Shown in pieces: positions 6,785 to 43,403 of a stretch of DNA of 60,621 nucleotides. The DNA comes from a virus. Taxonomy: Duplodnaviria > Caudoviricetes. Every line of letters starts with the position of its first letter. Within the stretch, counting starts at the first letter, position 1. A program made the translations under genes and the position numbers. The stretch is taken from positions 1-60,621 of the IMG/VR virus record IMGVR_UViG_3300048930_000296. One strand, written 5' to 3'. The notes beneath the pieces were generated by a model that was not told the DNA's origin, made no database searches, and saw only the letters and a list, made by a program, of their open reading frames with translations.

Positions 6785-6851
6785 CGCAAGCCACGCAAGA
6801 CCTATACAGTAACCCCCAAAATTTGCCGCGCTGTGCCAGCTACAGGGTGCC

Positions 6852-6886
6852 GCGCGGCTAGGGTGGCGGCACTGCGCTAGCCGCGC
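6852..6886. terminator. GC-rich inverted repeat between convergent late and early operons
   Basis: gcgcggctag (6852-6861) pairs with ctagccgcgc (6877-6886); no U-tract. Confidence 0.45.
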
Positions 6887-6898
6887 TGTAGCGGCCCC

Positions 6899-9127
6899 TT
6901 ATGCAGCGTCAGTTTCAGTGGGCATCACACCGATGTCTCTTAGGATTCGTAATGCTTCAGCTTCATACCAGTCGTAATCAATATCCTGAGGAAATTGATC
7001 CTCGAAAGACATGACAGGCTTTGCTCCATCCGACCGCGGAACCTTGTTTCCATTCTTAGCGTAAACAAGCTCACCCTGAACGTTCTTTGCGTAATACCAG
7101 CGCACAGTCTTTCCGATGTATTCAGTATGGCCAGGAGCGCTCAGCATATCAACTGCCATCTTGTATGCCTGCTTGCCGTAGCGAGCATTCCTTTCAGTCT
7201 CGCCCTTACGGATCCAGGCGTCTTTGTTAATCTCATAGAAGCCCGCCATCTCAAGAAGTTCTTCTTCTGTCTCGTGCGGCGGTGGAGGCAAGCGATCCCA
7301 CACTTTGACAGCTCCGCCAGTGACACTGCGAACGCAGACAAACTTAGTGATATCCTGGCATGACCGGATTGTGGTCACAATCGACGTTCCGCTTGTAAGG
7401 AACGCATTCACTGCATCAACGCAGATAGTTGCCATCGGGTTCTTCTTGAGCTTTTCGTCACTTTTCTTCTTGGATGCCCACGGGTTGGCATATGCGCCCT
7501 TACCCTTTGTCCCATCCGGAACTTCAATCCAAGCTTTAGTTGCGTCATCGAATTTTTGCTTGACTGCGGTGTAGTTGTTCACATCCCGTGAGAACAAACC
7601 CATGTATCTGGTTTCTTCAGTTTCGAATCCGGTATCAATTTCCCATTGCTTGACAATCGCGTTCATGATATGCTGCGCTGCCCGGGGGCACTTGATTACG
7701 ATTCCATCTGTGTTCGCGCTGACCACAGGGATTCCCGCTAGCTCCAGTCGTTCAATAAGCATCAGCAGTGAAAGCTGACCAGTCATTGTCACTTGGAACA
7801 ACAGGTCAGGCGCGTAGAGGATTGAACATTTGCTTCCAAGCTTACCGAAAGACCCGTTGATAACGATCTTGAGTGAATCAGCAACAACCTTGTTCTTCGC
7901 GCGCTTCGCTGCTATGCGCCTTTCAACGATTCCGTGGTAGACCCGCAGGAAAGGTTCGCCCAGGTGCTTAGGGGACAGCGCTTGGTTCAGGATGATATAT
8001 GGGTAATATGACGCCACGTCTTTGTCAAAGAGAATGTTGTTCTCATCTGTGTAGTGAGCAATCGTCTCTTCGCAACTGTGCAGCCCACCAAGACCCATCT
8101 GGTAGACGCTTCCGTTTATCTTAAGCTTCAGCGATTTCACTTCGCCTGGAAGCGCAACTGAACCAGAGTCATCCACAACGAAATAGGCGTTGGCTACAGT
8201 CTCAAGCGCCCACTGCAACAAAGGTGATTGGAACCGTATGAAGTGAGGAACGTGGTATCGGTAAGCTGTTCCAATTTCGATCTTAGGTCTCTGCGCCCTT
8301 ACTCCGGTGATGCGGTAGTATTCATTTCCGATAATAGCTTCAGCAATCTGCGCATCAGACTTGCTACGCAGATCAATCTTGTATTCGTTAGATAAGGTGT
8401 AACGCAGATCAATCTGCTCAGACAACTCGTTGCGAAGGATTTCAGTGTTGCGAGTGTCGTTGACACAATACCAACGAGTGATTGTAATCTGATCGGGCGT
8501 GAGGACTGTTCCAGGTGCAAAAGGCAGATCCTGCATTCGAGGCGCGTGCAACCGTCCCGCGTATGTCTTAAGCGAAGCCATGAGCGGCGCGACTTCAATA
8601 ATGTCAATGTGGTCGCAATAGTAAGCCTTCAACTTGTTGGCTTTCAGGATGTCGCTTCCGCGAAACCCGTTGACGATAATGTTGTGCGTTGCTTCAAATA
8701 ACTTGCGCGGGCGCCATCCATAGGACGCCATCAGCAGAATCGGAAGGTCGTAATTGTTCGAGTTATACCCGATGGTTGTTGCTGACTTCATCAACCACAT
8801 CAGCAACTGTGCGTTCAGAGGTTCACCTCCCTCAACCTCTTCAAAGTAACAAACTCCACCTGACTGGACATGCGTGAAAACAACTAGGAAATAATTCGGG
8901 TAAGATTCGACGTCAACAATGAACTGCTCTTTTCGAGCAATCGCATCACTTACTTCACCGACACTCATTAGTTTTACGGGGAAGCGCCTGGCTTCTTCAA
9001 GGCCTGGGAGATAATCAGGGCGAAGCCATGTTGCTTCGGGCGGAATGCGCTTTGCTTTCTCAGCTTTAGGAGGCTTCGGGGGCGGGGTATCGTCCCAAAA
9101 GAATCCAACCATGTCATTCCGAGCCAT
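6899..9127 (-). CDS. DNA polymerase, family B, with 3'-5' exonuclease
   Basis: Exo motifs VDVESY, YNSNNYD, YCVND; polymerase motifs DVASYYP, KIVINGSFG, NTDG. Confidence 0.9.
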   Translation of the reverse strand: MARNDMVGFFWDDTPPPKPPKAEKAKRIPPEATWLRPDYLPGLEEARRFPVKLMSVGEVSDAIARKEQFIVDVESYPNYFLVVFTHVQSGGVCYFEEVEGGEPLNAQLLMWLMKSATTIGYNSNNYDLPILLMASYGWRPRKLFEATHNIIVNGFRGSDILKANKLKAYYCDHIDIIEVAPLMASLKTYAGRLHAPRMQDLPFAPGTVLTPDQITITRWYCVNDTRNTEILRNELSEQIDLRYTLSNEYKIDLRSKSDAQIAEAIIGNEYYRITGVRAQRPKIEIGTAYRYHVPHFIRFQSPLLQWALETVANAYFVVDDSGSVALPGEVKSLKLKINGSVYQMGLGGLHSCEETIAHYTDENNILFDKDVASYYPYIILNQALSPKHLGEPFLRVYHGIVERRIAAKRAKNKVVADSLKIVINGSFGKLGSKCSILYAPDLLFQVTMTGQLSLLMLIERLELAGIPVVSANTDGIVIKCPRAAQHIMNAIVKQWEIDTGFETEETRYMGLFSRDVNNYTAVKQKFDDATKAWIEVPDGTKGKGAYANPWASKKKSDEKLKKNPMATICVDAVNAFLTSGTSIVTTIRSCQDITKFVCVRSVTGGAVKVWDRLPPPPHETEEELLEMAGFYEINKDAWIRKGETERNARYGKQAYKMAVDMLSAPGHTEYIGKTVRWYYAKNVQGELVYAKNGNKVPRSDGAKPVMSFEDQFPQDIDYDWYEAEALRILRDIGVMPTETDAA

Positions 9128-10083
9128 TACATGCGCATCCCGATAATGGCCCCGCGCAAGCGCTCGCCAAAGAACATTGTCGGTTCAGGGTATCTTGTAA
9201 AGTCCGCGTGCGTTGCAACACCAGCCAACAAGCTGAGCATCTTGATCTGGTAAGCGCCTTCAAACCCAAGACCGTCGACCGCGTAACCGGCGCCGCTTTC
9301 CAAGTCATCGTTCTCAGTTCGGAGCATACCGTTTCTGATGTAGACCCTTCCCGCCTTATCCGTGAAACCGTCCAAGCTTGCAAGCGCTTCGAAGAGCCTT
9401 GGGTCAATTGGGGTTGGCTTGGATTGAACGTCAAGAATCTTGGTAAGCTCTGGCCAAGTGGTTTCCAAGAGCTGCGTGCGGATCCACCGCCCGTCACTGT
9501 AATGGAATGTGACCGAGTTAGTGTCCATCTGGGCGTAAGTAGGTGGCTCATCAATCCGAAGCATTTCAGTGATTGCCACTTCGGGAATGTTGATTACTTC
9601 AGGAAAGTTTGCAGCCAGCCAATACTCAATCAGGCAGACGTTATTCGTAGCGAATGCTGATTGACCACGCAGAAGCACCCCGTTCGTCCACGGCCGAGAC
9701 GCATCATCTCCAATGAACGGTGAAATGACTTTCAGTGCGTTCAGCAGTGCTGCTCCGTCAAAGTCAACCCTTACACCAGCAGGTTCAACATGATGCGTTT
9801 CACCTTCAATGCAGTCAACAAAGACGTGAAACGGTCCACTTGAGATTTCAAGCTTGCCGTTCGCGCAGAACGTCATCGTCATAACATCCTTGCACCGGCT
9901 AATCGCCTTCACCAGCTTGTCAGCTTTCGGAATGCAATCAATGTCGCAATCAATTGGACTGCACAGTGCCAGAACGCCATTGTATGAACGGACAAAACCC
10001 CCTTCAATCCTGAAGTGCGTCATTGCGGGCATCAGATCGCGCTTGGCAACTGCACCCTGAACAAACTTCAACTCCTTCAGCAT
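9127..10083 (-). CDS. DNA sliding clamp (Pol III beta-like)
   Basis: Starts MLKELKFVQGAVAKRD; DASRPWTNGVLL..AFATN pattern, C-terminal GMRM; adjacent to polymerase. Confidence 0.75.
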   Translation of the reverse strand: MLKELKFVQGAVAKRDLMPAMTHFRIEGGFVRSYNGVLALCSPIDCDIDCIPKADKLVKAISRCKDVMTMTFCANGKLEISSGPFHVFVDCIEGETHHVEPAGVRVDFDGAALLNALKVISPFIGDDASRPWTNGVLLRGQSAFATNNVCLIEYWLAANFPEVINIPEVAITEMLRIDEPPTYAQMDTNSVTFHYSDGRWIRTQLLETTWPELTKILDVQSKPTPIDPRLFEALASLDGFTDKAGRVYIRNGMLRTENDDLESGAGYAVDGLGFEGAYQIKMLSLLAGVATHADFTRYPEPTMFFGERLRGAIIGMRM

Positions 10084-10205
10084 TGCTTGAACTCCAAAAC
10101 AATGCCAAAGCACGGGATCGGAAAGATGTAAAGCTTGCGCTTTTTCGAATCCCAGAACAACCCAATCCAGAAGTCATACCAGGCAAAGATTGGTCTAATT
10201 TTCAT
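10077..10205 (-). CDS. Small aromatic/hydrophobic protein (42 aa, MKIRPIFAWYDFWIGLFWD...)
   Basis: Not in ORF track; ATG overlaps dpdA stop (TGATG) and its end overlaps the clamp start. Confidence 0.7.
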   Translation of the reverse strand: MKIRPIFAWYDFWIGLFWDSKKRKLYIFPIPCFGIVLEFKQC

Positions 10206-11164
10206 CAGAACAGCTCCCTCACTTGCGCCTTGAAACGTTCATTTCCGGAAGCATTGATCATTGCGTTAACGACGCCGAACGCCCACAGGTTGTAAGCTGC
10301 TCGCGATTCATAGACAGAAGACAAGCGCTCGTAGGTGAACCCGTTCTCTTCCAACGTTCTGAACAGGTAATCTACTTCAACAGGCGACAGCGTTGTCATA
10401 TGCTGGTTTGCATCGTGCCTGCTTGGTGACTTCTCTGACACGTTGATTGGCCAGGCTGGTGCGTTTGCACTGACACCTGGCATAATAACCGAACCAAACG
10501 CCGCTGACTGGATCCAGGAAGATGAGTCGCAGCTATACCACGGATATTCATTCATAATGGGAACCGAGGTAATGCCGAACCCGTGAACCTTGAGTCTAGG
10601 GTTGCCCGAACCGTCAGTCAAGAACTTGTCCCAAATGCGGTCAAGCCAGACCATAAGTTGCTTCGTTGAGCTGCCAACCATACCGCCCAACGTGATGTAT
10701 TCGTAATTTCGAACGTAGTGTTCGAGGTAGCGTTCATCCTCACCAGCGTGGAAGCACGGAAGCGGACGCAGGTCCATTCCGTAATCCTCCTTGAAGCGCA
10801 TTTCCATTTCGTTCTGATTGCGCCAGGTCTGCAATGGGTCGCCAATACCGTCAAGGACAGACGCCATTATGTCATTGCCTTCAACGCGGATGATGTCAAG
10901 ATTGCGAACGATATAATCGCAATACTCCTTGACTGAAAGCTCAACCCCAAGCGAGTAGGCTGAGAACGCTCCGCTGTCCAGAAAGATGCGAGCTTTGTTG
11001 TTGCGCATATGATCGACGAAGCTCTGCTTGCCAACGTAATGCCAGGACTCAAGGATGTTGGGCAGTGTGGTCACAACATCCCTTTCACGTTCAGTCAGCT
11101 TGACATAACGGTTCATTCCCGGCATGTAACTGTTGGAATAGACCGCAGCCATGTAGATGTGCAA
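10205..11164 (-). CDS. dpdA: DpdA, 7-deazaguanine DNA transglycosylase (TGT fold)
   Basis: FLDSGAFSA, PCFH, LGGMVG, VHGFG, SCDSSSW motifs; located with folE/queCDE. Confidence 0.85.
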   Translation of the reverse strand: MHIYMAAVYSNSYMPGMNRYVKLTERERDVVTTLPNILESWHYVGKQSFVDHMRNNKARIFLDSGAFSAYSLGVELSVKEYCDYIVRNLDIIRVEGNDIMASVLDGIGDPLQTWRNQNEMEMRFKEDYGMDLRPLPCFHAGEDERYLEHYVRNYEYITLGGMVGSSTKQLMVWLDRIWDKFLTDGSGNPRLKVHGFGITSVPIMNEYPWYSCDSSSWIQSAAFGSVIMPGVSANAPAWPINVSEKSPSRHDANQHMTTLSPVEVDYLFRTLEENGFTYERLSSVYESRAAYNLWAFGVVNAMINASGNERFKAQVRELF

Positions 11165-11312
11165 TTTTGGCTCCTAACCATGCGGCTGTTATCGATGCCG
11201 ACCGCCGACCACCCTCGCCCCTCGCTCACGGTTGTGGGGACCGACCGCCGGTTGCTATCCGGAGTTCCAGAAGTGCTACCGCTGGAACCCCTGCACTTTA
11301 ACAGCCCCTGGC

Positions 11313-11942
11313 TCAGCGTGCAAGCTGCAAAAATTCGGCACGCACGATAGGGTCATCGCGGAAGATTCCGCGCGTGGCTGACGTCACCGTGTGGTGCCCT
11401 TGCTGGCAGACCCCGCGCGATTCCATGCACAGATGCCGCGCTTTGATAACCACAGCGGCGCCGAGCGGTTCCAGGTGCGTCATCAGTGCATCAACAACCT
11501 GACACGTCAGACGCTCTTGCACTTGGAGCCTGCGGGCATACACTTCAAGCAGCCTGGACAGCTTGCTCAAACCCACAATCTTTCCCTTCGGCAGATACGC
11601 GATGGTTGCGGTGCCGAAGATTGGCGCCATGTGGTGTTCACAGTGGGAGTAAAATGGGATGTCTTTCACCATCACCATCTCGTCAACACCCTCAGCACCA
11701 TCTTCGAAGGTCTTCAGAATGTCTGCCGGGTCAACACCGTAGCCAGAAGTCCAGAACTCCCAAGCTTTGGCAACGCGGTCGGGTGTCTCTTCAAGACCCT
11801 GCCTGACGTCTTCACTGTCAGGCACCTGTTCAATTGCACGAATTAGGGCACTGGCAGCGACTGCAAGCTGCCCCCGGCGGCTCAAGGACGTGTCGAGTTT
11901 CATGTTGGCCAGTTGGTCCAGGGCTTCACGCAGCTTGCTCAT
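11313..11942 (-). CDS. folE: GTP cyclohydrolase I
   Basis: ETPDRVAK, SHCEHH, GLSKLSR, LQVQERLT, HLCMESRG. Confidence 0.96.
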   Translation of the reverse strand: MSKLREALDQLANMKLDTSLSRRGQLAVAASALIRAIEQVPDSEDVRQGLEETPDRVAKAWEFWTSGYGVDPADILKTFEDGAEGVDEMVMVKDIPFYSHCEHHMAPIFGTATIAYLPKGKIVGLSKLSRLLEVYARRLQVQERLTCQVVDALMTHLEPLGAAVVIKARHLCMESRGVCQQGHHTVTSATRGIFRDDPIVRAEFLQLAR

Positions 11943-12394
11943 TTCTTGTCTCCGGTGTAGGTTGCTGAATTCGCGCCGTGCTCACGGACGGTCACGTGGT
12001 GCATACGCACGCGGGGCGCGTATCCGTAGTCGGCAAGCCACACTTCAGCAGCTTCGTAAACTAGCTTCGCAAATGCTTCGCAACCCGTTGCTTCGACAAC
12101 GATCACATCCGCCAGTCCCATGCCAGACAAGCTGCACAGGAAGTCCTTCTGCGGATCGTCGTCGGCCACCAGAAGCTTGTGATCGAAGGTGCGCTCGAGC
12201 TGTCCCTTGAACGACTTCAGAGACCCAAAGTCGACAACCCAATTGCGTTCGTCCAGCTCGTCCGCCTCAAACTCAAGGTGAACCGAAAGGGCGTAGCCAT
12301 GCAGCAAGTGGCAGTGGCTCTGCGCCTTCCATTGGCGGAAGCACGCCGAAAGGCCAATCTCATGGCCATACGTCTTCGACGACCTGTAGGTCAT
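11939..12394 (-). CDS. queD: 6-carboxytetrahydropterin synthase
   Basis: SHCHLLHGY, WVVDFG, FDH, VREH motifs. Confidence 0.92.
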   Translation of the reverse strand: MTYRSSKTYGHEIGLSACFRQWKAQSHCHLLHGYALSVHLEFEADELDERNWVVDFGSLKSFKGQLERTFDHKLLVADDDPQKDFLCSLSGMGLADVIVVEATGCEAFAKLVYEAAEVWLADYGYAPRVRMHHVTVREHGANSATYTGDKK

Positions 12395-13374
12395 ACTTTC
12401 ATCACTCCAATCAGGAAATCAAGGTTCTTTTGGTGGGTCAGGCAGTCGTCGGGGTCCCGCGTGTGGACGAACTTCGGATAGTGGCGTTCGGTCGCAAGCG
12501 CAGGAACCAGAAATGTCCGAAGTTCAGGATGCGGGTCACGTTTCAACATGACCGAGCTCACCGCGTTGAAGGTGTTTCCGCCGTGCCGAAGATAGATGAC
12601 GATCCGCTCATAGGACGCGCCGTAGGTATCAAGCCAGTCTTTGAACCGACGCTTGATTGCCGAGATGTGGTAATCCTTGACCTCAGGGGTGCAAAGGTCC
12701 CCGTTCCAGTCGTAGGCGTTGAACGGGTATTCCATCTCAGCAGACGCCGGAATGATACCGGCGTTCGAAATATGGATGTAGTCGCAGACAGGCAACATCT
12801 TGGCTTCGTGCAGTGCCTTGCGAATAGACGTGTGGATGAACGACTTGCTGTAGGGCTTCGCGTGTGAACAGATCGTCATGAAGGCTGTAGGCTTTTCGAT
12901 TTTGCGCCGATGCCAGACACCTCTCCAGGCGTCTTCGAACATGTCCACGTAAACCTTGCCCACGCCCGCAAAATAGGGCTTCGGGTTGTGGCTGCTGAAG
13001 AACTTGTCACGTTCGAAATCCGCAGGACCTTTCTTCTGGGATTCGGTGTGTATCAACGCCAGGATACGTTGCGGATTGTCGTCCCAACGGATAGCTTCAT
13101 CTCCGATGTAAAAATCAAAGCTTGCTTTGCCGCTCTCTGTTGGGTAAGGTGACCGATTGATCCCCATAAAATAGTCAATCAAGTGGTAGCGTTTCAACCA
13201 CTGCTTGACCACATAGTCAGCTCGACAGCTCCAAGCGTAGAGCATATGCCCGCGCGTGAACAACTCAACAACCAGCGCAGCCATCTTGGTGTTCGGTTCC
13301 GGGATCACATCACCGCCAGCCCAGCTACCGCCTTTGGCAAGCGTGCCGTCGATGTCAATTCCAATGACTGCCAT
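12391..13374 (-). CDS. Fusion of HAD-family phosphatase and ArcS/DUF5591-like domain
   Basis: N-terminal DIDGTL...WSCR...K...YIGD (HAD motifs I-IV); C-terminal CSHAKPYSKSFIH matches ArcS C-x3-KPY-x2-S-x2-H, followed by GIIP...EYPFNAYDW. Confidence 0.75.
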   Translation of the reverse strand: MAVIGIDIDGTLAKGGSWAGGDVIPEPNTKMAALVVELFTRGHMLYAWSCRADYVVKQWLKRYHLIDYFMGINRSPYPTESGKASFDFYIGDEAIRWDDNPQRILALIHTESQKKGPADFERDKFFSSHNPKPYFAGVGKVYVDMFEDAWRGVWHRRKIEKPTAFMTICSHAKPYSKSFIHTSIRKALHEAKMLPVCDYIHISNAGIIPASAEMEYPFNAYDWNGDLCTPEVKDYHISAIKRRFKDWLDTYGASYERIVIYLRHGGNTFNAVSSVMLKRDPHPELRTFLVPALATERHYPKFVHTRDPDDCLTHQKNLDFLIGVMKV

Positions 13375-14396
13375 TACGCCCACTCCCCTGCTTTGATCAT
13401 TACCGTGCGAAGCGTTTCAAGCTGCTCATCGGTTGTGTAGAAGTTCGGCCCGAGCCTGAGAACATTCCCGTGCCACGATGCAACGATATTTTCGCGCTCA
13501 AAGACGCTGCGCACTGATGAGCTTGGCAGCGTCAGATCCCTGAAGGCCAGCGCACCATAGACGCGGCCGAACCTGTATTGCCTCAGAAAGTTCTCAACCC
13601 GAAGAACCCTGTTGTTGAGTTCATCCTCATGCCACATCAGGTAATCAAGAACGTTCAGCGCGATGCTTGCGCAGAGATTGTTCCCGCCCCCGGTTGTATT
13701 CCAACCGATGGAAATCTTGTCGTTGAGCTTTTCTGAGATGCCCAGGACTGCCAGCGGTGCACCTTGCGCAAGACCTTTCCCGCTGACAATCATGTCCGCA
13801 TTGCGGGAAAGGAAACGCTCACCGCAACGGCCGAAGCCGGTGATCATCTCGTCGGCAACCAGGAGCGCTCCACGCTCATCACAGAGCTTGCGCATCTTGA
13901 TTGGACTGTTCCAGGTTCCGTCCCAACCCGAGACAGGTTCGTAAATCAGAACGTCAAAATGTTGCTTCGGGGCATCGGGGTGCAAGTCAAGTTCAACAAC
14001 CCCCATCGGGTTGCCCCATTCGATGTCATAGCGAATCCCAGCCATGGACAGGGACTTCCCGTGAAAGCTTCCAGGAAGAACCGCCACGATAGGCCGGCGC
14101 CCAAGGTGCAATGCTGCAACCTGGATTGCACGTTCGATTGCCTCTGCTCCGGTGTTGAGCAGCTTCCAGGTGAAGCCCGGCTTGTATTCAGCAAGCTTGG
14201 CGCGCAACTGCTCAGCTGCCAGCGAAGGCCGGTCGTAGCTATTCAGCAGCCCATTTGCCTCCACATCGTTCAGCGCTTGCCTGACAGGAAGTGACCCGTG
14301 CCCAAGCGAGACATTCAGAATCCCGCTCAGCATGTCAAGCCATTCGTTGCCCATTTCATCGTAGAGGTAAGACCCTCTTGCACCGCAGACTTTCAT
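13374..14396 (-). CDS. Class-III PLP-dependent aminotransferase
   Basis: GSYLYD...WLD, SLGHG, NTGAEA, SFHG, EPV, ADEMITGFGRCG, D...GKGLAQG (PLP lysine). Confidence 0.92.
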   Translation of the reverse strand: MKVCGARGSYLYDEMGNEWLDMLSGILNVSLGHGSLPVRQALNDVEANGLLNSYDRPSLAAEQLRAKLAEYKPGFTWKLLNTGAEAIERAIQVAALHLGRRPIVAVLPGSFHGKSLSMAGIRYDIEWGNPMGVVELDLHPDAPKQHFDVLIYEPVSGWDGTWNSPIKMRKLCDERGALLVADEMITGFGRCGERFLSRNADMIVSGKGLAQGAPLAVLGISEKLNDKISIGWNTTGGGNNLCASIALNVLDYLMWHEDELNNRVLRVENFLRQYRFGRVYGALAFRDLTLPSSSVRSVFERENIVASWHGNVLRLGPNFYTTDEQLETLRTVMIKAGEWA

Positions 14397-15178
14397 CACA
14401 GAACGAACCCCGCTTCCTCGAGCGCGGCAGCGCTGTAGTTGTCAGTCGCAGGCAGAGGCATCAAACCTTCCCGCCATGCGCGAACCACAAGCGGGTCTGG
14501 CCTGCCAGCTTCCTCGAACCCGGCAGCGCGCAGGACGTTGGCATGGTTCATATCCGTTGGCGGATACTTCCCGTCATAGCTGGTATGGCTGTAGGCAAGC
14601 GCAGCCCAGCAAGCGGGGTTCGCAAACGCCATGTGGACCGTCTGCGCCTTGGTGGCGTTCATCAGCGGAGTGATGATGCGGATGGCGCTCTCCGGATCCC
14701 TGTGGTCATGTCCGAGTGCCTTGTTGATGTAGTCTTCGGTTGCCCGGATGAACACCTCGCGGCAGTCGTCATAGTTCGCATTGTCCATCTGACAGACACC
14801 TGTGATGATATCGGCGCCGCCAAGCGCTTCCGCACGGTTTGCCGCGATGGTCAGGAACAGCGCATTGCGCATCGGAACAAACGTCAGCTCGCGACGGTTG
14901 CCGATCACTTCTTCCATTTGCTGCGCGTCGCTGTAGCGCTCAAGTTCGTTGTTGCTGGTGAGCGGGCTGGTGCTGACAAGACAGTTGGGCACGTCAACAA
15001 TTTCATGCGTCCGCACCCCCGCCATTTCAGCGACCTTCACCGCAGCGCTGAGCTCAATGCGGTGCCGCTGACCGTAGTCAAACGTGATTGCATGAACCTC
15101 ACTGTAGAACTCGCGTGCCCAAAACAGGCACGTCGTCGAATCCTGTCCGCCCGAAAGGACAACAAGCGCTCTCTTCAT
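14396..15178 (-). CDS. queC: 7-cyano-7-deazaguanine (preQ0) synthase, variant lacking the Cys cluster
   Basis: SGGQDSTT, FDYGQRH, TFVPMRN, YDDCR motifs; ATG overlaps queE stop. Confidence 0.93.
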   Translation of the reverse strand: MKRALVVLSGGQDSTTCLFWAREFYSEVHAITFDYGQRHRIELSAAVKVAEMAGVRTHEIVDVPNCLVSTSPLTSNNELERYSDAQQMEEVIGNRRELTFVPMRNALFLTIAANRAEALGGADIITGVCQMDNANYDDCREVFIRATEDYINKALGHDHRDPESAIRIITPLMNATKAQTVHMAFANPACWAALAYSHTSYDGKYPPTDMNHANVLRAAGFEEAGRPDPLVVRAWREGLMPLPATDNYSAAALEEAGFVL

Positions 15179-15909
15179 CACTCTACTCCGATGATCTTGT
15201 GGATTTGCAGTTGCATGATGTATCCGTGCTTCATACACGAATCGCGAACAGCCATGACGTTCCTTGCGTTCTCTGCAGTGTTCTTCGCGTCCATGGGCTG
15301 AAGATAGATAGGCCTATCCCACCAGTCTGGCGGTCGAGCGACACACGGATTGGCGCTGTGCATCAGCGCAGTGGCGGGCAACCCGTCATCGAGCATGTTC
15401 TGAGCTTCCATGACATACTTGACGCAACAAGCTTGCTGCCAAATCTCGTGATGCACCTTACCCGACTTGGGACTGCATACGATGTAGACTCCGGTCCGCA
15501 TACTCGGAACGGTGTTATATCCGTATTGCAACGGTGAAGGGGGAAGTGTCCCGTTCGTTTCAACCTGGACATAATAGCCGCTGTATTCGAGCAGCTCGAG
15601 AAGCCTGGTCAAATTCTGCCTGTAGGGTTCACCCCCGGTGATGACCACAAGGCCGCGCCTCCAATAGTGAGGACGCCAAAGATCGTTGACTTCTTCCAGG
15701 ATTGCGCCTGGCCCCATCAGCTTTCGCCCGCTGGTGTATTCGGTGTCACATGCAGGGCATTGGAGGTTGCATCCAGCGAGGCGCACAAAGACGCACGGGG
15801 TCCCACAGAAAGGACCTTCACCTTGGATGGTAACAAAAATCGAATGCACATCGAGCATCCCGTCTGGACGGTCAACACGCTTTTCGATTGGCTGGTCGTT
15901 GAGCTTCAT
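15178..15909 (-). CDS. queE: 7-carboxy-7-deazaguanine synthase (radical SAM)
   Basis: IQGEG, RLAGCNLQCPACDT, ITGGEP, VETNG, SPK, QIHK. Confidence 0.95.
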   Translation of the reverse strand: MKLNDQPIEKRVDRPDGMLDVHSIFVTIQGEGPFCGTPCVFVRLAGCNLQCPACDTEYTSGRKLMGPGAILEEVNDLWRPHYWRRGLVVITGGEPYRQNLTRLLELLEYSGYYVQVETNGTLPPSPLQYGYNTVPSMRTGVYIVCSPKSGKVHHEIWQQACCVKYVMEAQNMLDDGLPATALMHSANPCVARPPDWWDRPIYLQPMDAKNTAENARNVMAVRDSCMKHGYIMQLQIHKIIGVE

Positions 15910-15960
15910 AAGCCCTCCGGAGGTTTCTAACGCATCGCGCTAGGAGGTTTCGGGGGAGGT

Positions 15961-15993: not shown

Positions 15994-16036
15994 GGCCGGT
16001 AGCGGGGTTGGCCCTTGATGAACCAACCCGTGCCAG

Positions 16037-16665: not shown

Positions 16666-16683
16666 GGGCGAATTTTAGAAAAC

Positions 16684-17433
16684 TTACGACAATCGGGCTT
16701 TCATCCACTGGCCCAATGTGTTCGAAGCTGTCGTGCGCTTAATGTCGTGCTGAGTCTCAAGCACTTCCATCATTGTCATCCGCAGCTTCAGAACGACTTT
16801 CGTGTCCTTGGGGCTTCCAGCTTCTTTCCACATCTTGTCAGCCACCATCCAGATCTCACCTGCAACTCCCCCGGTTGGCTCAGCACCAGCGGGGCGCGGG
16901 GTGCCCGCAGGCTGCCGCGCTACGCCAGCGGGGCGGGGTGCCGGTATGGTTGCCGCGGGCAGCGGTTGCAGCGCTGTAGCGGCCCCTTTGGCTGCGCTAC
17001 GCATAGCATCAGTCATTTGAAGTGTGCGGGGCAAAATATCGTCAACAGTCTTTGGCGTTCTGCTGCCGAGCGCATAACGGTAGAAAGGAACTTTGCCAAC
17101 CGGAAGCTTCAATTGTGCTTCAACGGATGTGATCTGTTTGTCAAGCTCTTGATCGTCAACGAGTGGTGGCTTCATCGCGCCAATGACCACAGTGAGCGCC
17201 GCTCGCCGTTCGGCGTGAGTCAATGCCAGACCGGGTTCACCTGTCACACTGGTGTAGAGAAGTTGCATCTGCAAGACCTTGAGCCCCGCCAGGAAGTAGG
17301 GGCTATCGGTGTTTTCGAACTTCACATTCTTCACGTTGGCAGCTTCAAGCTGAACCAGACCGTGAAGTATGTCTTGCACGCGATGCACGTTCAGCACGCG
17401 CATCTTGTCCATGTCAATCGCGACGTGCATCAC
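16684..17433 (-). CDS. Hypothetical protein with Pro/Ala linker and C-terminal helical domain
   Basis: Long ORF, AGGAGG RBS, overlaps upstream stop. Confidence 0.8.
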   Translation of the reverse strand: MMHVAIDMDKMRVLNVHRVQDILHGLVQLEAANVKNVKFENTDSPYFLAGLKVLQMQLLYTSVTGEPGLALTHAERRAALTVVIGAMKPPLVDDQELDKQITSVEAQLKLPVGKVPFYRYALGSRTPKTVDDILPRTLQMTDAMRSAAKGAATALQPLPAATIPAPRPAGVARQPAGTPRPAGAEPTGGVAGEIWMVADKMWKEAGSPKDTKVVLKLRMTMMEVLETQHDIKRTTASNTLGQWMKARLS

Positions 17434-20993: not shown

Positions 20994-21869
20994 TCAGCCG
21001 CCAGGCTTCTGAGTCCACGGAGGCGCGAACCCCTGAGCGGGGTGCGGTGCCTCGGGCGCAGCAGGAGCACCAGCCGCAGCGGGCGGAGCGCCAGGCGCAG
21101 CGCCACCGGGTTGCCCCCAAGGCTGCTGACCTGCCGGTTGCTGCCAACCCCCTTGTGCGGGCGGCGCTGCGGGCGCTGCGGGCGCTGCGGGCGGGGCAGG
21201 GGGTGCCGCTGGTGCAGCAGGCTGAGCAGGGAACCGAGCACGAAGATCAGCTTCGCTGAGAACTTCGTTTCCGGCGTAGTAGTAGCCGGGTGCGCTCGGA
21301 TGTGCCAACCAACCCGCAGGCGGGAACGCTGCGGCCGGCGGGGCGACCGGGGGTGCTGCCGGCGGAGCTGCGGGCGGTGCTGCCTGGGTCTGTTGCGCCC
21401 AGGGCTGCGCGGGCGGAATCTGGGCAGCGGGCGGTGCGGTAGCGGCCGGAGCACCAGCAGGCTGACCATCGACAGCTTCGTTGATGTTCTTGAAGCTGCG
21501 AAGCTCGTTCGACGGTTCGTAGCCCTCATCCTTCTTGACGATGGCTTTCACCTTCATCGGGATGTTGTGGAGCTGCTGCGTATCGCTCAGCTGCAGAACG
21601 CCGGCAGCGTGGCAAAGAGCGGACAGCTGGCGCTGAGCGATCTCGGACGTCTGAGCGTTCGTGTGCTGCAGATTGAACCGGGCGAACAGCTTCCGGCCCT
21701 TGTATTGGCCGTCGAGAATGGTGAACCGAAACTGCGTGTAGCTGTTCACGCCGTCCTTGGTCGGCTTGTTGCCGCTTTCGTCGATCGCCGCGTTATACCA
21801 GCCAGCGGGAACGACTTCGATCCCGTTGTCCGGTTCAACTTTGGACGCGTCAAAGTGAAGTTGTGCCAT
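20994..21869 (-). CDS. Single-stranded DNA-binding protein (DUF669-like) with Pro/Ala-rich tail
   Basis: PAGWY...YKGRKLF...N motif; next to Sak4-like ATPase. Confidence 0.78.
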   Translation of the reverse strand: MAQLHFDASKVEPDNGIEVVPAGWYNAAIDESGNKPTKDGVNSYTQFRFTILDGQYKGRKLFARFNLQHTNAQTSEIAQRQLSALCHAAGVLQLSDTQQLHNIPMKVKAIVKKDEGYEPSNELRSFKNINEAVDGQPAGAPAATAPPAAQIPPAQPWAQQTQAAPPAAPPAAPPVAPPAAAFPPAGWLAHPSAPGYYYAGNEVLSEADLRARFPAQPAAPAAPPAPPAAPAAPAAPPAQGGWQQPAGQQPWGQPGGAAPGAPPAAAGAPAAPEAPHPAQGFAPPWTQKPGG

Positions 21870-35625: not shown

Positions 35626-35654
35626 AACATAGTTCCAGCTGGACCCAATTACAA
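35626..35654 (-). promoter_or_regulatory. Sigma70-like promoter with conserved leader hairpin
   Basis: TTGTAA-17-TATGTT; GCCCTTGTAATTG shared with the 16665 promoter. Confidence 0.6.
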
Positions 35655-36302
35655 GGGCAATGGTGGGATTTTTCCCACTATTTTTAGGTCGACCGGATGT
35701 AGTGGTTTGCAATGTTTGCAGCCCAAGCTCTTGTGTGGGGCCCTATAGGTTGGGCCGACCCAGGTCGTAGCCCATACGAAAAAACCCGATTTGCCACGTG
35801 GTGCCGGCTAACCCCTTACTCGCCCCAAGGGTCAAGGGACCGCAGACCTACGCTGTAGCGGCCCCTTATGGGCTGTGCTGGCAGACCTACCCCTTGCAAG
35901 GGGTGCGCTTGCTTGTGCCCAGGCAGCATCTATGCTGCTGTGCAGCATCATGGTGATGGGTGCTGCTGTGCAGGGGTAAGTGGTGCTGCTGCTTGGGTGC
36001 TAGTGGATGCCCATCCATACATATGCCTAGATGGATATGTGTTGTCCATGGTGTTACACTATAACAGCTAGGCCGTCAGGCAGGTGTCGCCTCGAGATGG
36101 GGCCGGCCACGTCCCCCTCCTCCCTCTGTGGTCCGACGACGATTCTCGCGATCCGAGCCCGACCAGCCTCTCGCGGTTTTTCGTTATATCTAACCCTAGT
36201 CTGCCCTAGTTCTGATTGTTTGCCGTATAGCCGGGGGTAGGCTAAGTTCTGTGCAAATCGCTCACCCCGAGCAAAAAATAGCGCGCGCCCCTAATTCTGA
36301 GT

Positions 36303-40002: not shown

Positions 40003-40490
40003 AACCTCAGAAGCAACGTTATCGCCACAAGCCTGAAGAAGGCATCTACGGGGATTGTCACCGCACTTGTATCGCCATGCTTCTTGACATGGATCGTGAT
40101 AGCGTTCCGCACTTTGCTGAACAGCATCCAGATGATTCGCGGTCATTCCAGCGCGCCTGCGAGGACTGGTTGAACGCCCACGGGCTTGCTACGGTCAATA
40201 TACCGTTCAATGCAAGCCTTCAGGAAGTGTTTGATTTCATGCGGGTCGTGAACCCTGGAGTCTACTACATTCTTGGCGGTGAGTCGAGAACCGGAGTTAA
40301 CCACAGTGTCGTCGCTGTGAACGACATGATTGCTGCCGATCCGTCGTTGAATGATTCTGGAATTATTGGTCCAACAAAGCCTGACGGGCATTATTGGGTG
40401 ACGTTCTACGTTCCAATGAGTTTGAAGTTGAATTCCGGATATGCTTCCGACCCTACTTATGAAGGGATTAAGGAGCCCGCGGATGATTGA
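39999..40490 (+). CDS. Putative papain/C39-like peptidase-fold protein
   Basis: GDCHRTCIA...HSVV...DPS Cys-His-Asp pattern. Confidence 0.55.
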   Translation: MKPQKQRYRHKPEEGIYGDCHRTCIAMLLDMDRDSVPHFAEQHPDDSRSFQRACEDWLNAHGLATVNIPFNASLQEVFDFMRVVNPGVYYILGGESRTGVNHSVVAVNDMIAADPSLNDSGIIGPTKPDGHYWVTFYVPMSLKLNSGYASDPTYEGIKEPADD

Positions 40491-40977
40491 CTTCTTTGAT
40501 GAGATGTTCAAGAGCGCACAGAGCCCTTTCGCGCCGCAGCTAACGCCTCTGCAAATGATGGAAATGGGGGTGTTCGGGCGCAGCTACTTCACCGAGGCAA
40601 CTGAAGAAGATTTTGAAGGCCTTGCGCCTGCAGTTGAAGAGCTGGCACGGAAGCAGGTTGGGAAGTATAGCCCCAAGCTGAACCGATTTAAGGTTCGCAG
40701 CGGTGACAGTAAGCAAGCCTGGGCAGCGCAAGGATGGTTGAAGCCGGAAGACCCGCTTGGCTGGTTCCATTGGTATTGCCGATATCACAACGGGCGTCGG
40801 CATATGCGCGACGAATGGCAGATTGAACGCTGGCGCAACTTTGGAATTCGTTGGGGCAGATTTGGTCGAGACCAAGTGCGGACGCGCGGATGGTGTTCCC
40901 CTGTAGTCAAGCAGAGTCTGCTCCATTGGGCGTATGAACCCGAGACAATTCTGAGGATTGGCAATGGACCTTCTTGA
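40483..40977 (+). CDS. Conserved protein of unknown function (DPxGWFxWYCRY family)
   Basis: LTP..M...GVFG, DPLGWFHWYCRY..GRR..D..QI.RW, Q.LLHWAY. Confidence 0.7.
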   Translation: MIDFFDEMFKSAQSPFAPQLTPLQMMEMGVFGRSYFTEATEEDFEGLAPAVEELARKQVGKYSPKLNRFKVRSGDSKQAWAAQGWLKPEDPLGWFHWYCRYHNGRRHMRDEWQIERWRNFGIRWGRFGRDQVRTRGWCSPVVKQSLLHWAYEPETILRIGNGPS

Positions 40978-41539
40978 AAAGCTTGACACCGCCAGGCAGC
41001 ACGCTCACAATGGCGGGATTCCTGTTCGTCGTAAAGACGGAAAGCTCTATGCTCTACTTTCCGAATGCCTTTCGATCTGCGAAGAAGTGATTGCTGAAGG
41101 TATGTTCGAGGAACTTCGTCAACTGGCTCGGGTTTCTGTCAATGAGCGCAAGCCTAGAGGGTCTGTAACTCGTGCTGAAAGCAATAATGGCCGAGGCCGC
41201 AACTATGTCGAAAAAGGCTCTGACGCTTTCATCCTTGTCTGCAGATATGTTCTTAGCGGGGTTGACGAACGTAACTCGTCTTATCGCTACGCCACAACCC
41301 TGCGTGAAGCGCACCGTCGGTCAATCAGATCCAATGATCTTGCTTCTTGGCTGAAAGAGAACGGTGGCGTCAATGCTCTTTATGGGCGAGCAATCTACAA
41401 AGGTGATATCAACAGCAAACGAACACTTCATCTGAACGAAGCTGTTTCATTTCCCCGTGAAGGTGAGTTCACCATAAGGTTGAAACACGACGGAAAAGGT
41501 TTCTTCGACGTTGTGCAAAAGCCCTTGCGATGTGACTAG
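40964..41539 (+). CDS. Hypothetical protein
   Basis: GAGG RBS, overlap with upstream gene. Confidence 0.7.
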   Translation: MDLLEKLDTARQHAHNGGIPVRRKDGKLYALLSECLSICEEVIAEGMFEELRQLARVSVNERKPRGSVTRAESNNGRGRNYVEKGSDAFILVCRYVLSGVDERNSSYRYATTLREAHRRSIRSNDLASWLKENGGVNALYGRAIYKGDINSKRTLHLNEAVSFPREGEFTIRLKHDGKGFFDVVQKPLRCD

Positions 41540-42466: not shown

Positions 42467-42648
42467 TCACAAAGATAGGTGACCTGATCAACCGCGTGAC
42501 AGCTTCGGTCAGACAGTTTGGGATTGACCCTCACTCTGACATTGTGGTAAGGGTTGGTGATTTTGGTCATGAGCTGCCGATCGAGCATCTCAAGGTCCAA
42601 GGGGGTATTCGGCCGAAACTGGTTCTGCAAGTGAAGTCACAACCATGA
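42463..42648 (+). CDS. Hypothetical protein
   Basis: GTGA coupling. Confidence 0.6.
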   Translation: MITKIGDLINRVTASVRQFGIDPHSDIVVRVGDFGHELPIEHLKVQGGIRPKLVLQVKSQP

Positions 42649-42959
42649 CGGAACCGTTTGAACCTCCTCGGCGTTTGTCGATCTGGCTTTCGCATCCTGC
42701 CTATCACCCATCGTATGCGCGGGTTGGCATCAAGTTCAACGGCGTTGAGCGAAACGATGTTCAGTGGTATGATTTGGACAAGCGCCAGATCCGTATCAAG
42801 GACACCAATGAACTGTTGGAAGGCGATATTGTTGCCTTCTGGCGCTACCCTGAAACCCGCCAGCAGAGACGTGCTCGCGAATCCTGGGAGAAGAAAAATG
42901 TTCGGAACGATCTGGGGAATGGCCCTTCGGGCGCAACTGGAAGCAAGAGTGAGGGCTGA
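42645..42959 (+). CDS. Hypothetical protein
   Basis: ATGA coupling. Confidence 0.65.
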   Translation: MTEPFEPPRRLSIWLSHPAYHPSYARVGIKFNGVERNDVQWYDLDKRQIRIKDTNELLEGDIVAFWRYPETRQQRRARESWEKKNVRNDLGNGPSGATGSKSEG

Positions 42960-42964
42960 AACAA

Positions 42965-43192
42965 ATGATCGACGCGCAAGCAATTCAGAAGGAAATCAGT
43001 CAGCTGACGTTGCGGGGGGTTTCCCTTCAGCAACAGCAAATCGCTCAGACCCACTTGTTCAACGCTGCGGCGATCATGATGGACGGGAATATGATGGACA
43101 GCCACCGCGCATCCATTCACGCGGTCGTTGACGAAATCCTTGACGGGAATGCGCGGATGTTTGCGCTGACCCGGCAGCTGAACGCCCTGTAG
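42965..43192 (+). CDS. Hypothetical protein
   Basis: GAGGG RBS. Confidence 0.65.
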   Translation: MIDAQAIQKEISQLTLRGVSLQQQQIAQTHLFNAAAIMMDGNMMDSHRASIHAVVDEILDGNARMFALTRQLNAL

Positions 43193-43403
43193 GGTTGCAG
43201 CTTGCACCCCGTGAAATTTGCCGCAGCGTGCCAGCTAGCGCTGCGGCCGTAGGGTAGGCCGCCCCTAACAAGCGCACCCTACAGCGTGGCCCCTGCTGGG
43301 CTACAGTGAAAGGCCCTTGCTGACTGTCTGGCTCCTATGCTATGGGTTGTCCACCGACGGTCGATGGCGACTCGGTAATTCCGCAAGTTGCCTAGAGGTG
43401 CCC

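What the first reader, a model, noticed from the sequence alone, without database searches (positions are those of the whole stretch)
6801..43308. Long windows with no GA or TC dinucleotide: possible modification-free islands
Seen by manual scan: no GA and no TC (so no GA on either strand) in 6801-6909 (109 bp), 16881-17009 (129 bp), 21129-21224 (96 bp) and 43214-43308 (95 bp). Weaker depletion occurs at 26881-26934, 35846-36006 and 51665-51745. GA/TC is common elsewhere; at a naive 1/8 per position a 109-bp gap has probability near 5e-7 per site. Two windows are intergenic, so amino-acid bias cannot explain them. Established: DpdA of coliphage CAjan modifies G in GA (and GGC) contexts. Inference: the genome keeps unmodified patches every 5-10 kb, sometimes hidden in Pro/Ala linkers, for a protein or process that cannot handle the bulky base (packaging, ejection, nicking or replisome loading).
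Basis: partly seen in the sequence, partly recalled or inferred. Interest (0 to 1): 0.75.

Follow-up and report, generated by a model that had tools for sequence, protein, structure and literature searches.

The report
GA-free islands in a deazaguanine phage
A complete 60-kb phage genome that encodes enzymes for replacing guanine with a bulky 7-deazaguanine keeps a few ~100-base stretches, mainly copies of one repeat at the borders of its gene blocks, free of the dinucleotide GA on both strands; related phages do the same, so control sites may be kept unmodified in this way.

Summary
There are four GA/TC-free gaps of 129, 110, 96 and 95 nt, and the next longest is 60 nt. Local-composition shuffles give even one gap of 95 nt or more in at most 3 of 300 runs. 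The mirror class AG/CT never exceeds 63 nt.

The windows are of different kinds.
- 21129-21224 is the Pro/Ala tail of a DUF669 (SSB-like) protein. Amino-acid composition explains it, and a DpdA-less phage (phage 73) has the same kind of window.
- 6800-6909 and 43214-43308 are intergenic copies of one ~95-nt repeat. A third, degenerate copy lies at 35787-35880, and a fourth lies inside linker-coding DNA (16881-17009).
- The three intergenic copies sit at the convergent, divergent and early-to-lysis borders of the genome.

An orthologous copy in a relative stays GA/TC-free despite 31 substitutions (P=1e-4).

In a survey, 16 Queuovirinae-like DpdA+ genomes have 38 significant gaps. Ten DpdA- controls have 1, and four DpdA+ genomes of other lineages have 0. 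Iggy, whose DpdA is shown experimentally to be GA-specific, has some of the longest gaps. CAjan (GA+GGC) has none.

My best reading (about 0.45) is that these are cis-acting sites kept free of the DpdA target. This phage's DpdA specificity is unknown, the windows are GGC-rich, and no function could be assigned. The regular 5-10 kb spacing is not supported.

The parts
6800..6909 (.). GA/TC-free window 1. It is repeat copy 1 (element about 6819-6909) and fills the convergent spacer between a tail-side gene (ends 6784, +) and the DNA polymerase gene (stop codon 6899-6901, -).
   Evidence: The spacer 6785-6898 has 1 GA+TC against 12.5 expected. An orthologous copy exists in L016.
43214..43308 (.). 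GA/TC-free window 4. It is repeat copy 2, in the same orientation as copy 1. It lies in an intergenic spacer about 1 kb upstream of the endolysin gene, at the early-to-lysis/late border.
   Evidence: The endolysin was assigned. The spacer 43132-43316 has 9 GA+TC against 21.2 expected.
35787..35880 (.). Degenerate repeat copy 3, in the same orientation, with 5 GA/TC. It lies in the divergent spacer 35649-36030, which is GA/TC-poor overall.
   Evidence: The spacer has 20 GA+TC against 46.3 expected.
16881..17009 (.). GA/TC-free window 2. It lies inside the linker-coding DNA of gene 16684-17433 (-). It shares the 17-mer CGCTGTAGCGGCCCCTT and 84 nt (71% identity) with copy 1, on the same DNA strand.
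   Evidence: Synonymous resampling: 0 observed against 8.8 expected, with 0 of 20000 resamplings reaching zero. Genome-wide corrected P is about 0.03 (12 of 400). Linkers defined in advance across the family give a ratio of 0.51.
21129..21224 (-). GA/TC-free window 3. It is a PAAPAAPP tandem repeat in the disordered tail of the DUF669 (SSB-like) protein gene 20994-21869. I read it as a compositional by-product.
   Evidence: Synonymous tests give P=0.012-0.019. The whole tail has 30 GA+TC against 30.7 expected.
10205..11164 (-). DpdA candidate (DNA guanine transglycosylase), Queuovirinae type.
   Evidence: phrog_887, E=3e-85. Amino-acid identity is 74.7% to the MMDA13 homologue, about 71% to NP1/PaMx25, about 60% to Seuratvirus and 57.7% to Iggy DpdA.
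11313..15909 (-). 7-deazaguanine precursor cluster: FolE 11313-11942, QueD 11939-12394, a DUF5591 protein 12391-13383, a class-III aminotransferase 13374-14399, QueC 14396-15238 and a radical-SAM QueE-like protein 15178-15909.
   Evidence: Pfam hits.
6899..9127 (-). DNA polymerase gene. Repeat copy 1 starts directly after its stop codon.
   Evidence: phrog_1252, E=2e-204.
16684..17433 (-). Gene of unknown function (phrog_7864) with two domains joined by a Pro/Ala/Arg-rich linker. The linker DNA is window 2.
   Evidence: No informative look-alikes were found.
44214..44864 (+). Endolysin gene, used as the landmark for the early-to-late border downstream of copy 2.
   Evidence: phrog_1224, E=1e-73.

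Best explanation
The four windows are two different things.

(A) 21129-21224 is the Pro/Ala-rich disordered tail of a DUF669/SSB-like protein. It lacks GA/TC because it has no Asp, Glu, Ser, Ile or Phe codons.

(B) 6800-6909 and 43214-43308 are members of one ~95-nt GC-rich repeat. The same family includes a degenerate copy at 35787-35880 and a copy embedded in the linker-coding DNA of gene 16684-17433 (window 16881-17009). All four copies lie on the same DNA strand. The three intergenic copies occupy the three transcription-unit borders of the genome: the convergent junction after the DNA polymerase gene, the divergent early control region, and the border before the lysis/late genes.

I propose that these are cis-acting, protein-read DNA sites that selection keeps free of GA on both strands. 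The reasoning is that the phage's DpdA exchanges the G of GA for a 7-deazaguanine, as Iggy's DpdA does. Avoiding the motif would then exempt these sites from the phage's own hypermodification, so whatever reads them sees ordinary guanine.

Shown here: the windows, the repeat family and its positions, the site-specific depletion, the maintenance of the GA/TC-free state across divergence, and its occurrence across one phage lineage.

Inferred: that this DpdA targets GA only, that the DNA is modified at all, and what binds or uses the sites.
For: 1. Site specificity. The three element-bearing spacers have 30 GA+TC against 80 expected (ratio 0.38, Poisson P=1.3e-10). All other spacers have 623 against 641 (0.97). 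Coding DNA has slightly more GA+TC than synonymous permutation predicts (7400 against 7252±32).

2. Maintenance. The orthologous element after the polymerase stop in relative L016 is GA/TC-free for 98 nt. That is the longest gap in the 13.9-kb locus; the next is 67 and the mirror maximum is 57. It differs from the window's copy by 31 substitutions and 14 gap columns. Placing 31 substitutions at random creates 7.8 new GA/TC on average, and no new GA/TC arose in only a fraction 1e-4 of 20000 simulations.

3. Regions defined in advance. The 120 nt after the polymerase stop in 20 genomes or loci have 187 GA+TC against 287 expected (0.65), while AG+CT is 0.96. Eleven distinct linkers of the 16684-17433 gene family have 87 against 169 expected under synonymous resampling (0.51; AG+CT 0.90). 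The same model gives 1.07-1.09 on DUF669, so it is calibrated.

4. Lineage survey. There are 38 gaps with E<0.05 in 16 Queuovirinae-like DpdA+ genomes (983 kb; 12 of 16 genomes have at least one). There is 1 in 10 DpdA- phages (520 kb) and 0 in 4 DpdA+ genomes of other lineages. The mirror class AG/CT gives 0 in all 30 genomes. Gaps that look noncoding number 14, 0 and 0 in the three sets.

5. The effect is not a GC-hairpin artefact. Relatives with about 40% GC have kb-scale GA deserts: G004 2076-4475 with 65 against 287 expected, and G005 39001-41000 with 50 against 238. These lie at the divergent early region, as do deserts in Iggy and G007.

6. Iggy's DpdA is strictly GA-specific by experiment (PMC10484667). 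Iggy has gaps of 171, 161, 157, 152, 108, 95, 95 and 93 nt. CAjan (GA+GGC) has none above 81 nt.

7. The absence is strand-symmetric (no GA and no TC) and specific to this class. GC, TA, AG/CT and CA/TG are at or above expectation; AC/GT is slightly below.

8. Non-homologous windows occupy the same border upstream of the lysis genes in the window, MMDA13, G001, G002 and Iggy.
Against: 1. Neither the modification nor the target motif of this phage's DpdA is known. The protein is only 58-60% identical to the two DpdAs with mapped motifs.

2. The windows are 2.5-3 times enriched in GGC/GCC (8.3-10.5 per 100 nt against 3.4 genome-wide). With CAjan-type specificity they would be heavily modified.

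3. Four of 16 Queuovirinae-like genomes have no significant window (CAjan, JenK1, G006, G010), and neither does any of the 4 DpdA+ genomes of other lineages (BcepGomr, RHEph06, Rosebush, Baskent_P4_1).

4. The rule is not absolute. Copy 35787-35880 has 5 GA/TC. The orthologous junction elements of MMDA13, G001 and G010 keep a conserved CGATCG, and MMDA13 has 9 GA+TC against 14.3 expected.

5. All positive genomes belong to one lineage. The link to DpdA could therefore be phylogenetic coincidence.

6. I chose G001-G010 for contig length after having seen gap values for parts of them, so the choice was not blind.

7. No function could be assigned. There is no sigma-70-like promoter or intrinsic terminator, no Rfam family or tRNA, and no fold more stable than shuffles.

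8. Pooled noncoding DNA is only slightly more GA/TC-poor than in controls (median 0.92 against 0.97).
Confidence: 0.45

Rival explanations
1. Element-intrinsic grammar. The repeat is a functional cis-element, such as a protein-binding site or a structured DNA region. Its required words (GCTACAGC, TAGGGTAGC-like boxes, GC-rich stems) happen to contain no GA/TC. DpdA plays no part.
For: Signature words are concentrated in the elements. CTACAG/CTGTAG occurs 6 times out of 33 in 0.71% of the genome (0.23 expected), and GCTACAGC/GCTGTAGC 3 times out of 5. Words are shared with the junction elements of MMDA13, G001, G002 and G010. DpdA+ phages of other lineages lack windows. Some orthologues tolerate a conserved CGATCG.
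Against: The 31 substitutions between the window and L016 copies fall largely outside the shared words, yet none creates GA/TC. Unrelated AT-rich sequences in G004 and G005 show a 4- to 5-fold GA/TC depletion over 2 kb. The mirror class AG/CT is never depleted. An independent grammar would be needed for each non-homologous window in Iggy, MMDA13 and G001-G009.
Confidence: 0.25
2. GA sites are a general liability in these phages. Modified G could be a target for host glycosylases or type IV enzymes, or it could be mutagenic or costly. GA would then be lost wherever sequence is free to change, and the windows would simply be the least constrained DNA.
For: GA/TC is under-represented genome-wide in Iggy (odds 0.77/0.80) and in G004 and G005 (0.82-0.86). 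The largest deserts are noncoding. Host glycosylases that cleave DNA containing dPreQ0 or 7-deazaguanine are reported in bioRxiv 10.1101/2025.10.29.685425 (passages seen).
Against: In the window genome GA and TC are over-represented (1.05 and 1.08). Other spacers are at 0.97 and coding DNA exceeds synonymous expectation (z=+4.7). DUF669 tails are not depleted at the codon level (ratio 1.07). NP1, MMDA13, G001 and G003 have windows although their genome-wide odds are 1.08-1.14.
Confidence: 0.13
3. Everything is composition, low complexity or chance. GC-rich, Pro/Ala/Gln-coding or repeat-expanded DNA simply lacks GA/TC.
For: Fifty-nine DUF669 tails show no codon-level depletion (1423 against 1331). 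A single coding gap of 96 nt or more arises in 69 of 400 genome-wide synonymous permutations, and a gap of 129 nt or more in 12 of 400. DpdA-less phage 73 has a 168-nt window in a Q/P/G/A-rich tail. Window 21129-21224 is a 9-nt tandem repeat.
Against: Two windows are intergenic. Local-composition shuffles reach 95 nt in at most 3 of 300 runs. Two coding gaps of 96 nt or more together occurred in 0 of 400 permutations. Controls have no intergenic window in 520 kb. See also the L016 conservation test.
Confidence: 0.07
4. An RNA-level constraint. Untranslated transcript segments would avoid Shine-Dalgarno-like GGAG/GAGG/AGGA, or a GA- or UC-specific RNase site.
For: The absence of GA removes all core Shine-Dalgarno words. 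The elements lie in untranslated spacers at operon ends.
Against: This would need two separate constraints on one RNA (no GA and no UC), or transcription of both strands. It does not explain the loss of every GA outside Shine-Dalgarno-like contexts, nor the copy inside a translated linker. The folds show no special structure.
Confidence: 0.05

Closest known systems
Motif-specific dPreQ0 modification by phage DpdA (Escherichia phage CAjan: GA and GGC; Pseudomonas phage Iggy: GA only)
   Same: The window has the same gene set (DpdA, FolE, QueD, QueC, QueE) in the same order beside the DNA polymerase and clamp genes. DpdA identity is 58-60%. Iggy itself has GA/TC-free windows and a terminal GA desert.
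   Different: This phage's modification and motif are unmeasured. Its cluster carries an extra DUF5591 protein and a class-III aminotransferase. In the passages I read and in three full-text searches I found no description of motif-free islands. Supplementary per-site tables were closed.
Restriction-site or short-palindrome avoidance in phage genomes (recalled general knowledge, not checked here)
   Same: Selection acts on the count of a short DNA word because an enzyme acts on that word.
   Different: Here the avoided word would be the target of the phage's own modifying enzyme. The avoidance is local (islands of 95 nt to 2.4 kb), whereas the genome as a whole is GA-rich (odds 1.05-1.08).
Regulatory DNA kept unmodified in otherwise modified genomes, such as vertebrate CpG islands or protein-protected unmethylated GATC sites in bacteria (recalled, not checked here)
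   Same: Control regions differ in modification state from the bulk genome.
   Different: In those cases the motif is present and is protected or enriched. Here the motif is absent from the sequence.
Intrinsically disordered Gln/Pro/Gly/Ala-rich linker of SSB-like proteins
   Same: Window 21129-21224 and the long gaps after the DUF669 N-terminal domain in about 40 relatives are such tails, ending in a PPW-type tip. Phage 73 has one too.
   Different: This explains only that class of window. It does not explain the intergenic ones or the extra codon-level depletion in the 16684-17433 linker.

Membership tests
Queuovirinae-type 7-deazaguanine DNA modification system | A DpdA (TGT-like DNA transglycosylase) is encoded. 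| tested here: met
   10205-11164(-): phrog_887, E=3e-85. It is 57.7-74.7% identical to DpdA of Iggy, CAjan-like phages, NP1 and MMDA13.
Queuovirinae-type 7-deazaguanine DNA modification system | preQ0 synthesis genes FolE, QueD, QueE and QueC are present. | tested here: met
   Pfam hits PF01227, PF01242, PF06508 and PF04055 at 11313-15909.
Queuovirinae-type 7-deazaguanine DNA modification system | The DNA actually carries a 7-deazaguanine, inserted at GA. | not testable with these tools
   This needs LC-MS or native-versus-amplified nanopore data. Only contigs of public runs were available.
Dispersed repeat family (the ~95-nt element) | Several copies share ordered modules beyond chance. | tested here: met
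   Module TTTGCCNCNNNGTGCCNGCTA: 3 exact matches, and 2 of 100 shuffles reach 3. Module CGCTGTAGCGGCCCCTT: 3 exact matches, and 0 of 100 shuffles reach the observed 4. Alignment. BLAST links 16913-16996 to copy 1.
Intrinsic (rho-independent) terminator | A GC-rich hairpin followed by a T-run. | tested here: not met
   0 sites in each of the three intergenic copies. In L016 the T-run precedes the stem and the A-run follows it, on both strands.
Sigma-70 promoter | -35 and -10 hexamers with a 16-18 nt spacer. | tested here: not met
   0 sites. The G004 desert has 7 sites against 6.7±2.6 in shuffles. Other promoter types are not covered by the tool.
Structured non-coding RNA | A match to a known family, or a fold more stable than shuffles. 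| tested here: not met
   Rfam gave 0 matches. Fold z-scores range from -0.70 to +1.02 on both strands of three copies.
SSB-like disordered tail (for 21129-21224 only) | A low-complexity Pro/Ala/Gln/Gly tail after a conserved N-terminal domain, with GA/TC at the level its amino-acid sequence predicts. | tested here: met
   DUF669 domain at residues 5-115. The tail has 30 GA+TC against 30.7 expected, and 59 tails give 1423 against 1331.

The most novel reading that the evidence does not exclude
Queuovirinae phages whose DpdA targets GA carve modification-free islands into their genomes. These range from ~100-nt elements at operon borders to 0.7-2.4 kb GA deserts over the divergent early control region. 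The result would be that the host and phage proteins reading these sites see ordinary guanine on virion-derived, hypermodified DNA. If this is true, the target motif of a DNA-hypermodifying enzyme can be read from where it is locally absent. For this phage the prediction is GA only, and not GGC. The islands would also mark the phage's key cis-acting sites.
Probability: 0.4. Interest if true: 0.8.

Novelty: new variant of a known kind. Interest (0 to 1): 0.62.

Why it matters
Partial, motif-specific hypermodification raises a question that the papers I read do not address. How do promoters, origins, packaging sites and other protein-read sites cope with a bulky major-groove substituent? Local motif avoidance would be a simple answer.

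If it holds, it gives three practical handles:
- a sequence-only way to guess a DpdA's specificity;
- a map of candidate cis-elements in a phage subfamily that is used and studied for Pseudomonas and E. coli;
- a clean experimental lever, namely adding GA sites and comparing dpdA+ with dpdA- backgrounds.

The finding also carries a caution. Long dinucleotide-free gaps in Pro/Ala/Gln linkers are compositional and should not be over-read.

Tried and rejected
- **Rfam and tRNA scans:** nothing found.
- **RNA folds:** three copies on both strands were no more stable than shuffles.
- **Promoter and terminator scans:** none found at the three copies. In the G004 desert, promoters are not enriched and terminator-like hairpins are only mildly enriched.
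- **Sigma-54-like reading:** I considered by eye that the reverse strand of module 1 (GGCAC-N5-GGCAAA) might be a sigma-54 site. I dropped the idea because the GG-to-GC spacing is one base short. No tool tested this.
- **Element words in IMG/VR:** the 16-mer gave 7 unrelated chance or hairpin hits. One search used a wrongly spaced pattern (my slip). The corrected pattern found nothing.
- **Distant polymerase relatives:** L008-L010 have no element or window.
- **CAjan windows free of both its motifs:** the longest is 79 nt against a shuffle maximum of 78, so not significant.
- **Gene 16684-17433:** no informative look-alike was found, so I did not pursue a lambda-O-like 'origin inside its own gene' idea.
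- **G004 desert:** megablast against annotated phages gave no match.
- **Public runs:** only contigs are held, so ends or nicks cannot be seen. Contigs of relatives roughly 90-97% identical cover the windows. The per-site table was cut (1671 rows not shown), so the natural-variation test could not be read.
- **Metagenome scan for closer orthologues:** three attempts got no answer from the machine, and I stopped.
- **First window classifier:** my first IDL/noncoding classifier picked wrong frames. I replaced it, where 13 of the 38 gaps remain 'ambiguous'.
- **Regular 5-10 kb spacing:** rejected, because the fill-in windows are chance-level.

Full report
**What the window is.** The 60,621-nt window is a complete, circularly assembled phage genome; positions 1-126 repeat at 60489-60614. 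It is a stand-alone IMG/VR virus record. It is a distant relative of the NP1/PaMx25-type Pseudomonas siphoviruses and of Sphingomonas phage MMDA13. Genes run on the + strand to 6784, on the - strand from 6899 to about 35712, and on the + strand again from 35868. The minus block carries:
- DNA polymerase at 6899-9127 and a clamp-like protein at 9127-10113;
- DpdA at 10205-11164 (phrog_887, E=3e-85);
- FolE, QueD, a DUF5591 protein, a class-III aminotransferase, QueC and a QueE-like protein.

DpdA is 74.7% identical to that of MMDA13, about 71% to NP1/PaMx25, about 60% to Seuratvirus and 57.7% to Iggy. I first took the DUF5591 protein for DpdA. One search showed that it has almost no phage relatives, and one search identified the real DpdA.

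The GA/TC-free stretches are 16881-17009 (129 nt), 6800-6909 (110), 21129-21224 (96) and 43214-43308 (95). The next longest is 60 nt. From each window's own base composition, 7.3-12.4 GA+TC are expected and none is seen, while the mirror class AG+CT is at or above expectation. Shuffles within 50-, 100- or 200-nt blocks reach 95 nt in 0, 3 and 2 of 300 runs. The longest AG/CT gap is 63 nt.

**Three or four windows are one repeat.** Repeat finding, alignment and pattern searches link four sites:
- 6819-6909
- 35787-35880
- 43214-43308
- 16962-16996 through its 3' module; BLAST extends this link to 16913-16996.

All copies lie on the same DNA strand. The three intergenic copies sit at three borders:
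- the convergent junction directly after the polymerase stop codon;
- the divergent spacer between the two early arms;
- a spacer about 1 kb upstream of the endolysin gene.

The 35.8-kb copy has 5 GA/TC. The elements' words are absent from other IMG/VR contigs. Rfam, tRNA, fold-stability, promoter and terminator tests were all negative.

**The coding windows.** Window 21129-21224 is a PAAPAAPP repeat in the tail of a DUF669 protein. Window 16881-17009 is the Pro/Ala/Arg linker of a two-domain protein of unknown function.

Post-hoc synonymous tests looked strong for 16881-17009: 0 observed against 8.8 expected, with 0 of 20000 resamplings reaching zero. They were marginal for 21129-21224 (P=0.012-0.019). 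Because the windows were picked for being empty, I ran a genome-wide within-gene synonymous permutation:
- the longest coding gap is 76±20 nt;
- a gap of 129 nt or more occurs in 12 of 400 permutations;
- a gap of 96 nt or more occurs in 69 of 400;
- two gaps of 96 nt or more together occur in 0 of 400.

With the region defined in advance, 59 DUF669 tails (not de-duplicated) show no codon-level depletion. GA+TC is 1423 against 1331 expected (ratio 1.07), AG+CT is 1.06 and the N-terminal domain is 1.09. The window's own tail has 30 against 30.7. DpdA-less phage 73 has a 168-nt window whose reverse strand encodes a Q/P/G/A-rich tail. That class of window is therefore compositional.

The linker of the 16684-17433 family behaves differently. 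In 11 distinct linkers, several of them from one clade, GA+TC is 87 against 169 expected (0.51) and AG+CT is 0.90. Something at the DNA level seems to overlie the coding sequence there, and this is the window that shares sequence with the intergenic repeat.

**Is the depletion site-specific?** Yes:
- the three element-bearing spacers have 30 GA+TC against 80 expected (P=1.3e-10);
- all other spacers have 623 against 641;
- coding DNA exceeds synonymous expectation (7400 against 7252±32).

A generally hypermutable or generally avoided GA is therefore rejected for this genome.

**Is the GA/TC-free state maintained?** L016 is a 68-82% identical relative with the same deazaguanine cluster and polymerase. 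It carries a recognisable orthologue of the junction element right after its polymerase stop. That orthologue is GA/TC-free for 98 nt although 31 positions are substituted. Random substitutions would create 7.8 new GA/TC on average, and none arose in a fraction 1e-4 of simulations.

Over 20 genomes or loci, the 120 nt after the polymerase stop have 187 GA+TC against 287 expected (0.65; AG+CT 0.96). The depletion is concentrated in the window's wider clade. Against a strict rule, MMDA13, G001 and G010 keep a conserved CGATCG inside the element.

**Relatives and controls.** Long GA/TC-free gaps occur in Iggy (171, 161, 157, 152, 108, 95, 95 and 93 nt), NP1 (144 and 111) and MMDA13 (117 and 116). 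They do not occur in CAjan, whose longest gap is 81 nt. GA/TC is the dinucleotide class with the most significant gaps in 4 of these 5 genomes.

| Set | Genomes | Size | Gaps with E<0.05 | Noncoding-likely |
|---|---|---|---|---|
| Queuovirinae-like DpdA+ | 16 | 983 kb | 38 (12 of 16 genomes) | 14 |
| DpdA+ of other lineages | 4 | 216 kb | 0 | 0 |
| DpdA- phages | 10 | 520 kb | 1 | 0 |

The mirror class gives 0 gaps in all 30 genomes. The DpdA- phages had no hit with a query that found DpdA in 15 of 15 positive records tested this way. By a crude frame test, the 38 gaps split into 11 disordered-tail, 14 noncoding-likely and 13 ambiguous.

Relatives with about 40% GC have kb-scale deserts: G004 2076-4475 (65 against 287 expected) and G005 39001-41000 (50 against 238). 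Deserts are also found at G007 62351-63200 and Iggy 59901-60625. All four lie between the primase-side block and the late block, the equivalent of the window's divergent spacer.

MMDA13, G001 and G002 have a 109-120-nt window just after the UvrD gene and upstream of the lysis/terminase genes. Iggy has one upstream of RusA-endolysin.

Two caveats apply. Pooled noncoding DNA differs only slightly from controls (median 0.92 against 0.97, Mann-Whitney P=0.005), so the effect is local.

**Literature.**
- CAjan: GA and GGC (PMC7544227, abstract and passages).
- Iggy: GA only, about 97% of GA sites modified, and a 'lower count of GA sites' (PMC10484667, passages).
- DpdA subfamilies (PMC10516641, passages).
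- Host glycosylases that cut deazaguanine DNA (bioRxiv 10.1101/2025.10.29.685425, passages).

Three full-text searches and term searches within these papers turned up no description of motif-free islands. Supplements were closed and were not seen.

**Verdict.** The finding is real. It is also narrower, because one window is purely compositional, another is partly so, and there is no regular spacing.

The most parsimonious agent known to act on the dinucleotide GA in duplex DNA in this lineage is DpdA. I therefore favour local avoidance of the phage's own modification motif at cis-acting sites (0.45). This rests on an untested GA-only specificity, since the windows are GGC-rich, and on correlation within one lineage. 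What the sites do remains unknown.

Noticed in passing
window 12391-14399 (-): The deazaguanine cluster contains a DUF5591 (ArcS/TGT-C-like) protein and, overlapping its start, a class-III aminotransferase. In 50,697 phage records the DUF5591 protein matches only two Synechococcus phages (45% identity; one record annotates an aminotransferase gene next to it) and an archaeal virus. This may point to a 7-deazaguanine derivative other than dPreQ0.
   Followed up: partly
window 1-126 and 60489-60614: An exact 126-nt terminal overlap indicates a circular or permuted assembly. The true genome length is about 60,488 nt, and the physical ends are unknown.
   Followed up: no
window 16314-16484 (gene 16037-16591, -): A 171-nt stretch has no AC/GT. 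It encodes KAAEKAAK-type repeats. The homologous genes of MMDA13 and Iggy show the same AC/GT gap, so low-complexity coding can empty other dinucleotide classes too.
   Followed up: partly
G004:2076-4475 (L135) and G005:39001-41000: Two relatives with 39-40% GC have 2-2.4 kb regions with 4- to 5-fold fewer GA/TC than expected (65 against 287; 50 against 238) and normal AG/CT. The regions contain several terminator-like hairpins. Megablast against annotated phages found no match.
   Followed up: partly
Iggy (L019+L020), whole genome and 60363-60457: Iggy is GA/TC-poor genome-wide (odds 0.77/0.80). Near its right end it has a 95-nt GA/TC-free, AT-rich stretch with two runs of nine G.
   Followed up: no
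L016 9273-9370: The orthologous junction element is bracketed by T6 on its 5' side and A6 on its 3' side. The same holds when read on either strand. This is the reverse of a bidirectional terminator and would extend a long hairpin or cruciform.
   Followed up: no
NP1 (L023) 39698-39841: A stretch annotated as intergenic reads as a Gln/Pro/Ala-rich continuation of the DUF669 gene gp47. The annotated gene may be truncated or frameshifted.
   Followed up: no
Iggy (L019) 27653-27871 and 39259-39663: The annotated genes gp34 and gp52 lie almost wholly inside GA/TC-free windows and match no PHROG or Pfam family. They may not be genes.
   Followed up: partly
window 6500-21500, runs X1, X2, X3, X5: Contigs roughly 90-97% identical to the window occur in runs labelled sludge, activated sludge and wastewater metagenome. 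Some contigs skip or replace short stretches, for example 11163-11295 between DpdA and FolE.
   Followed up: no
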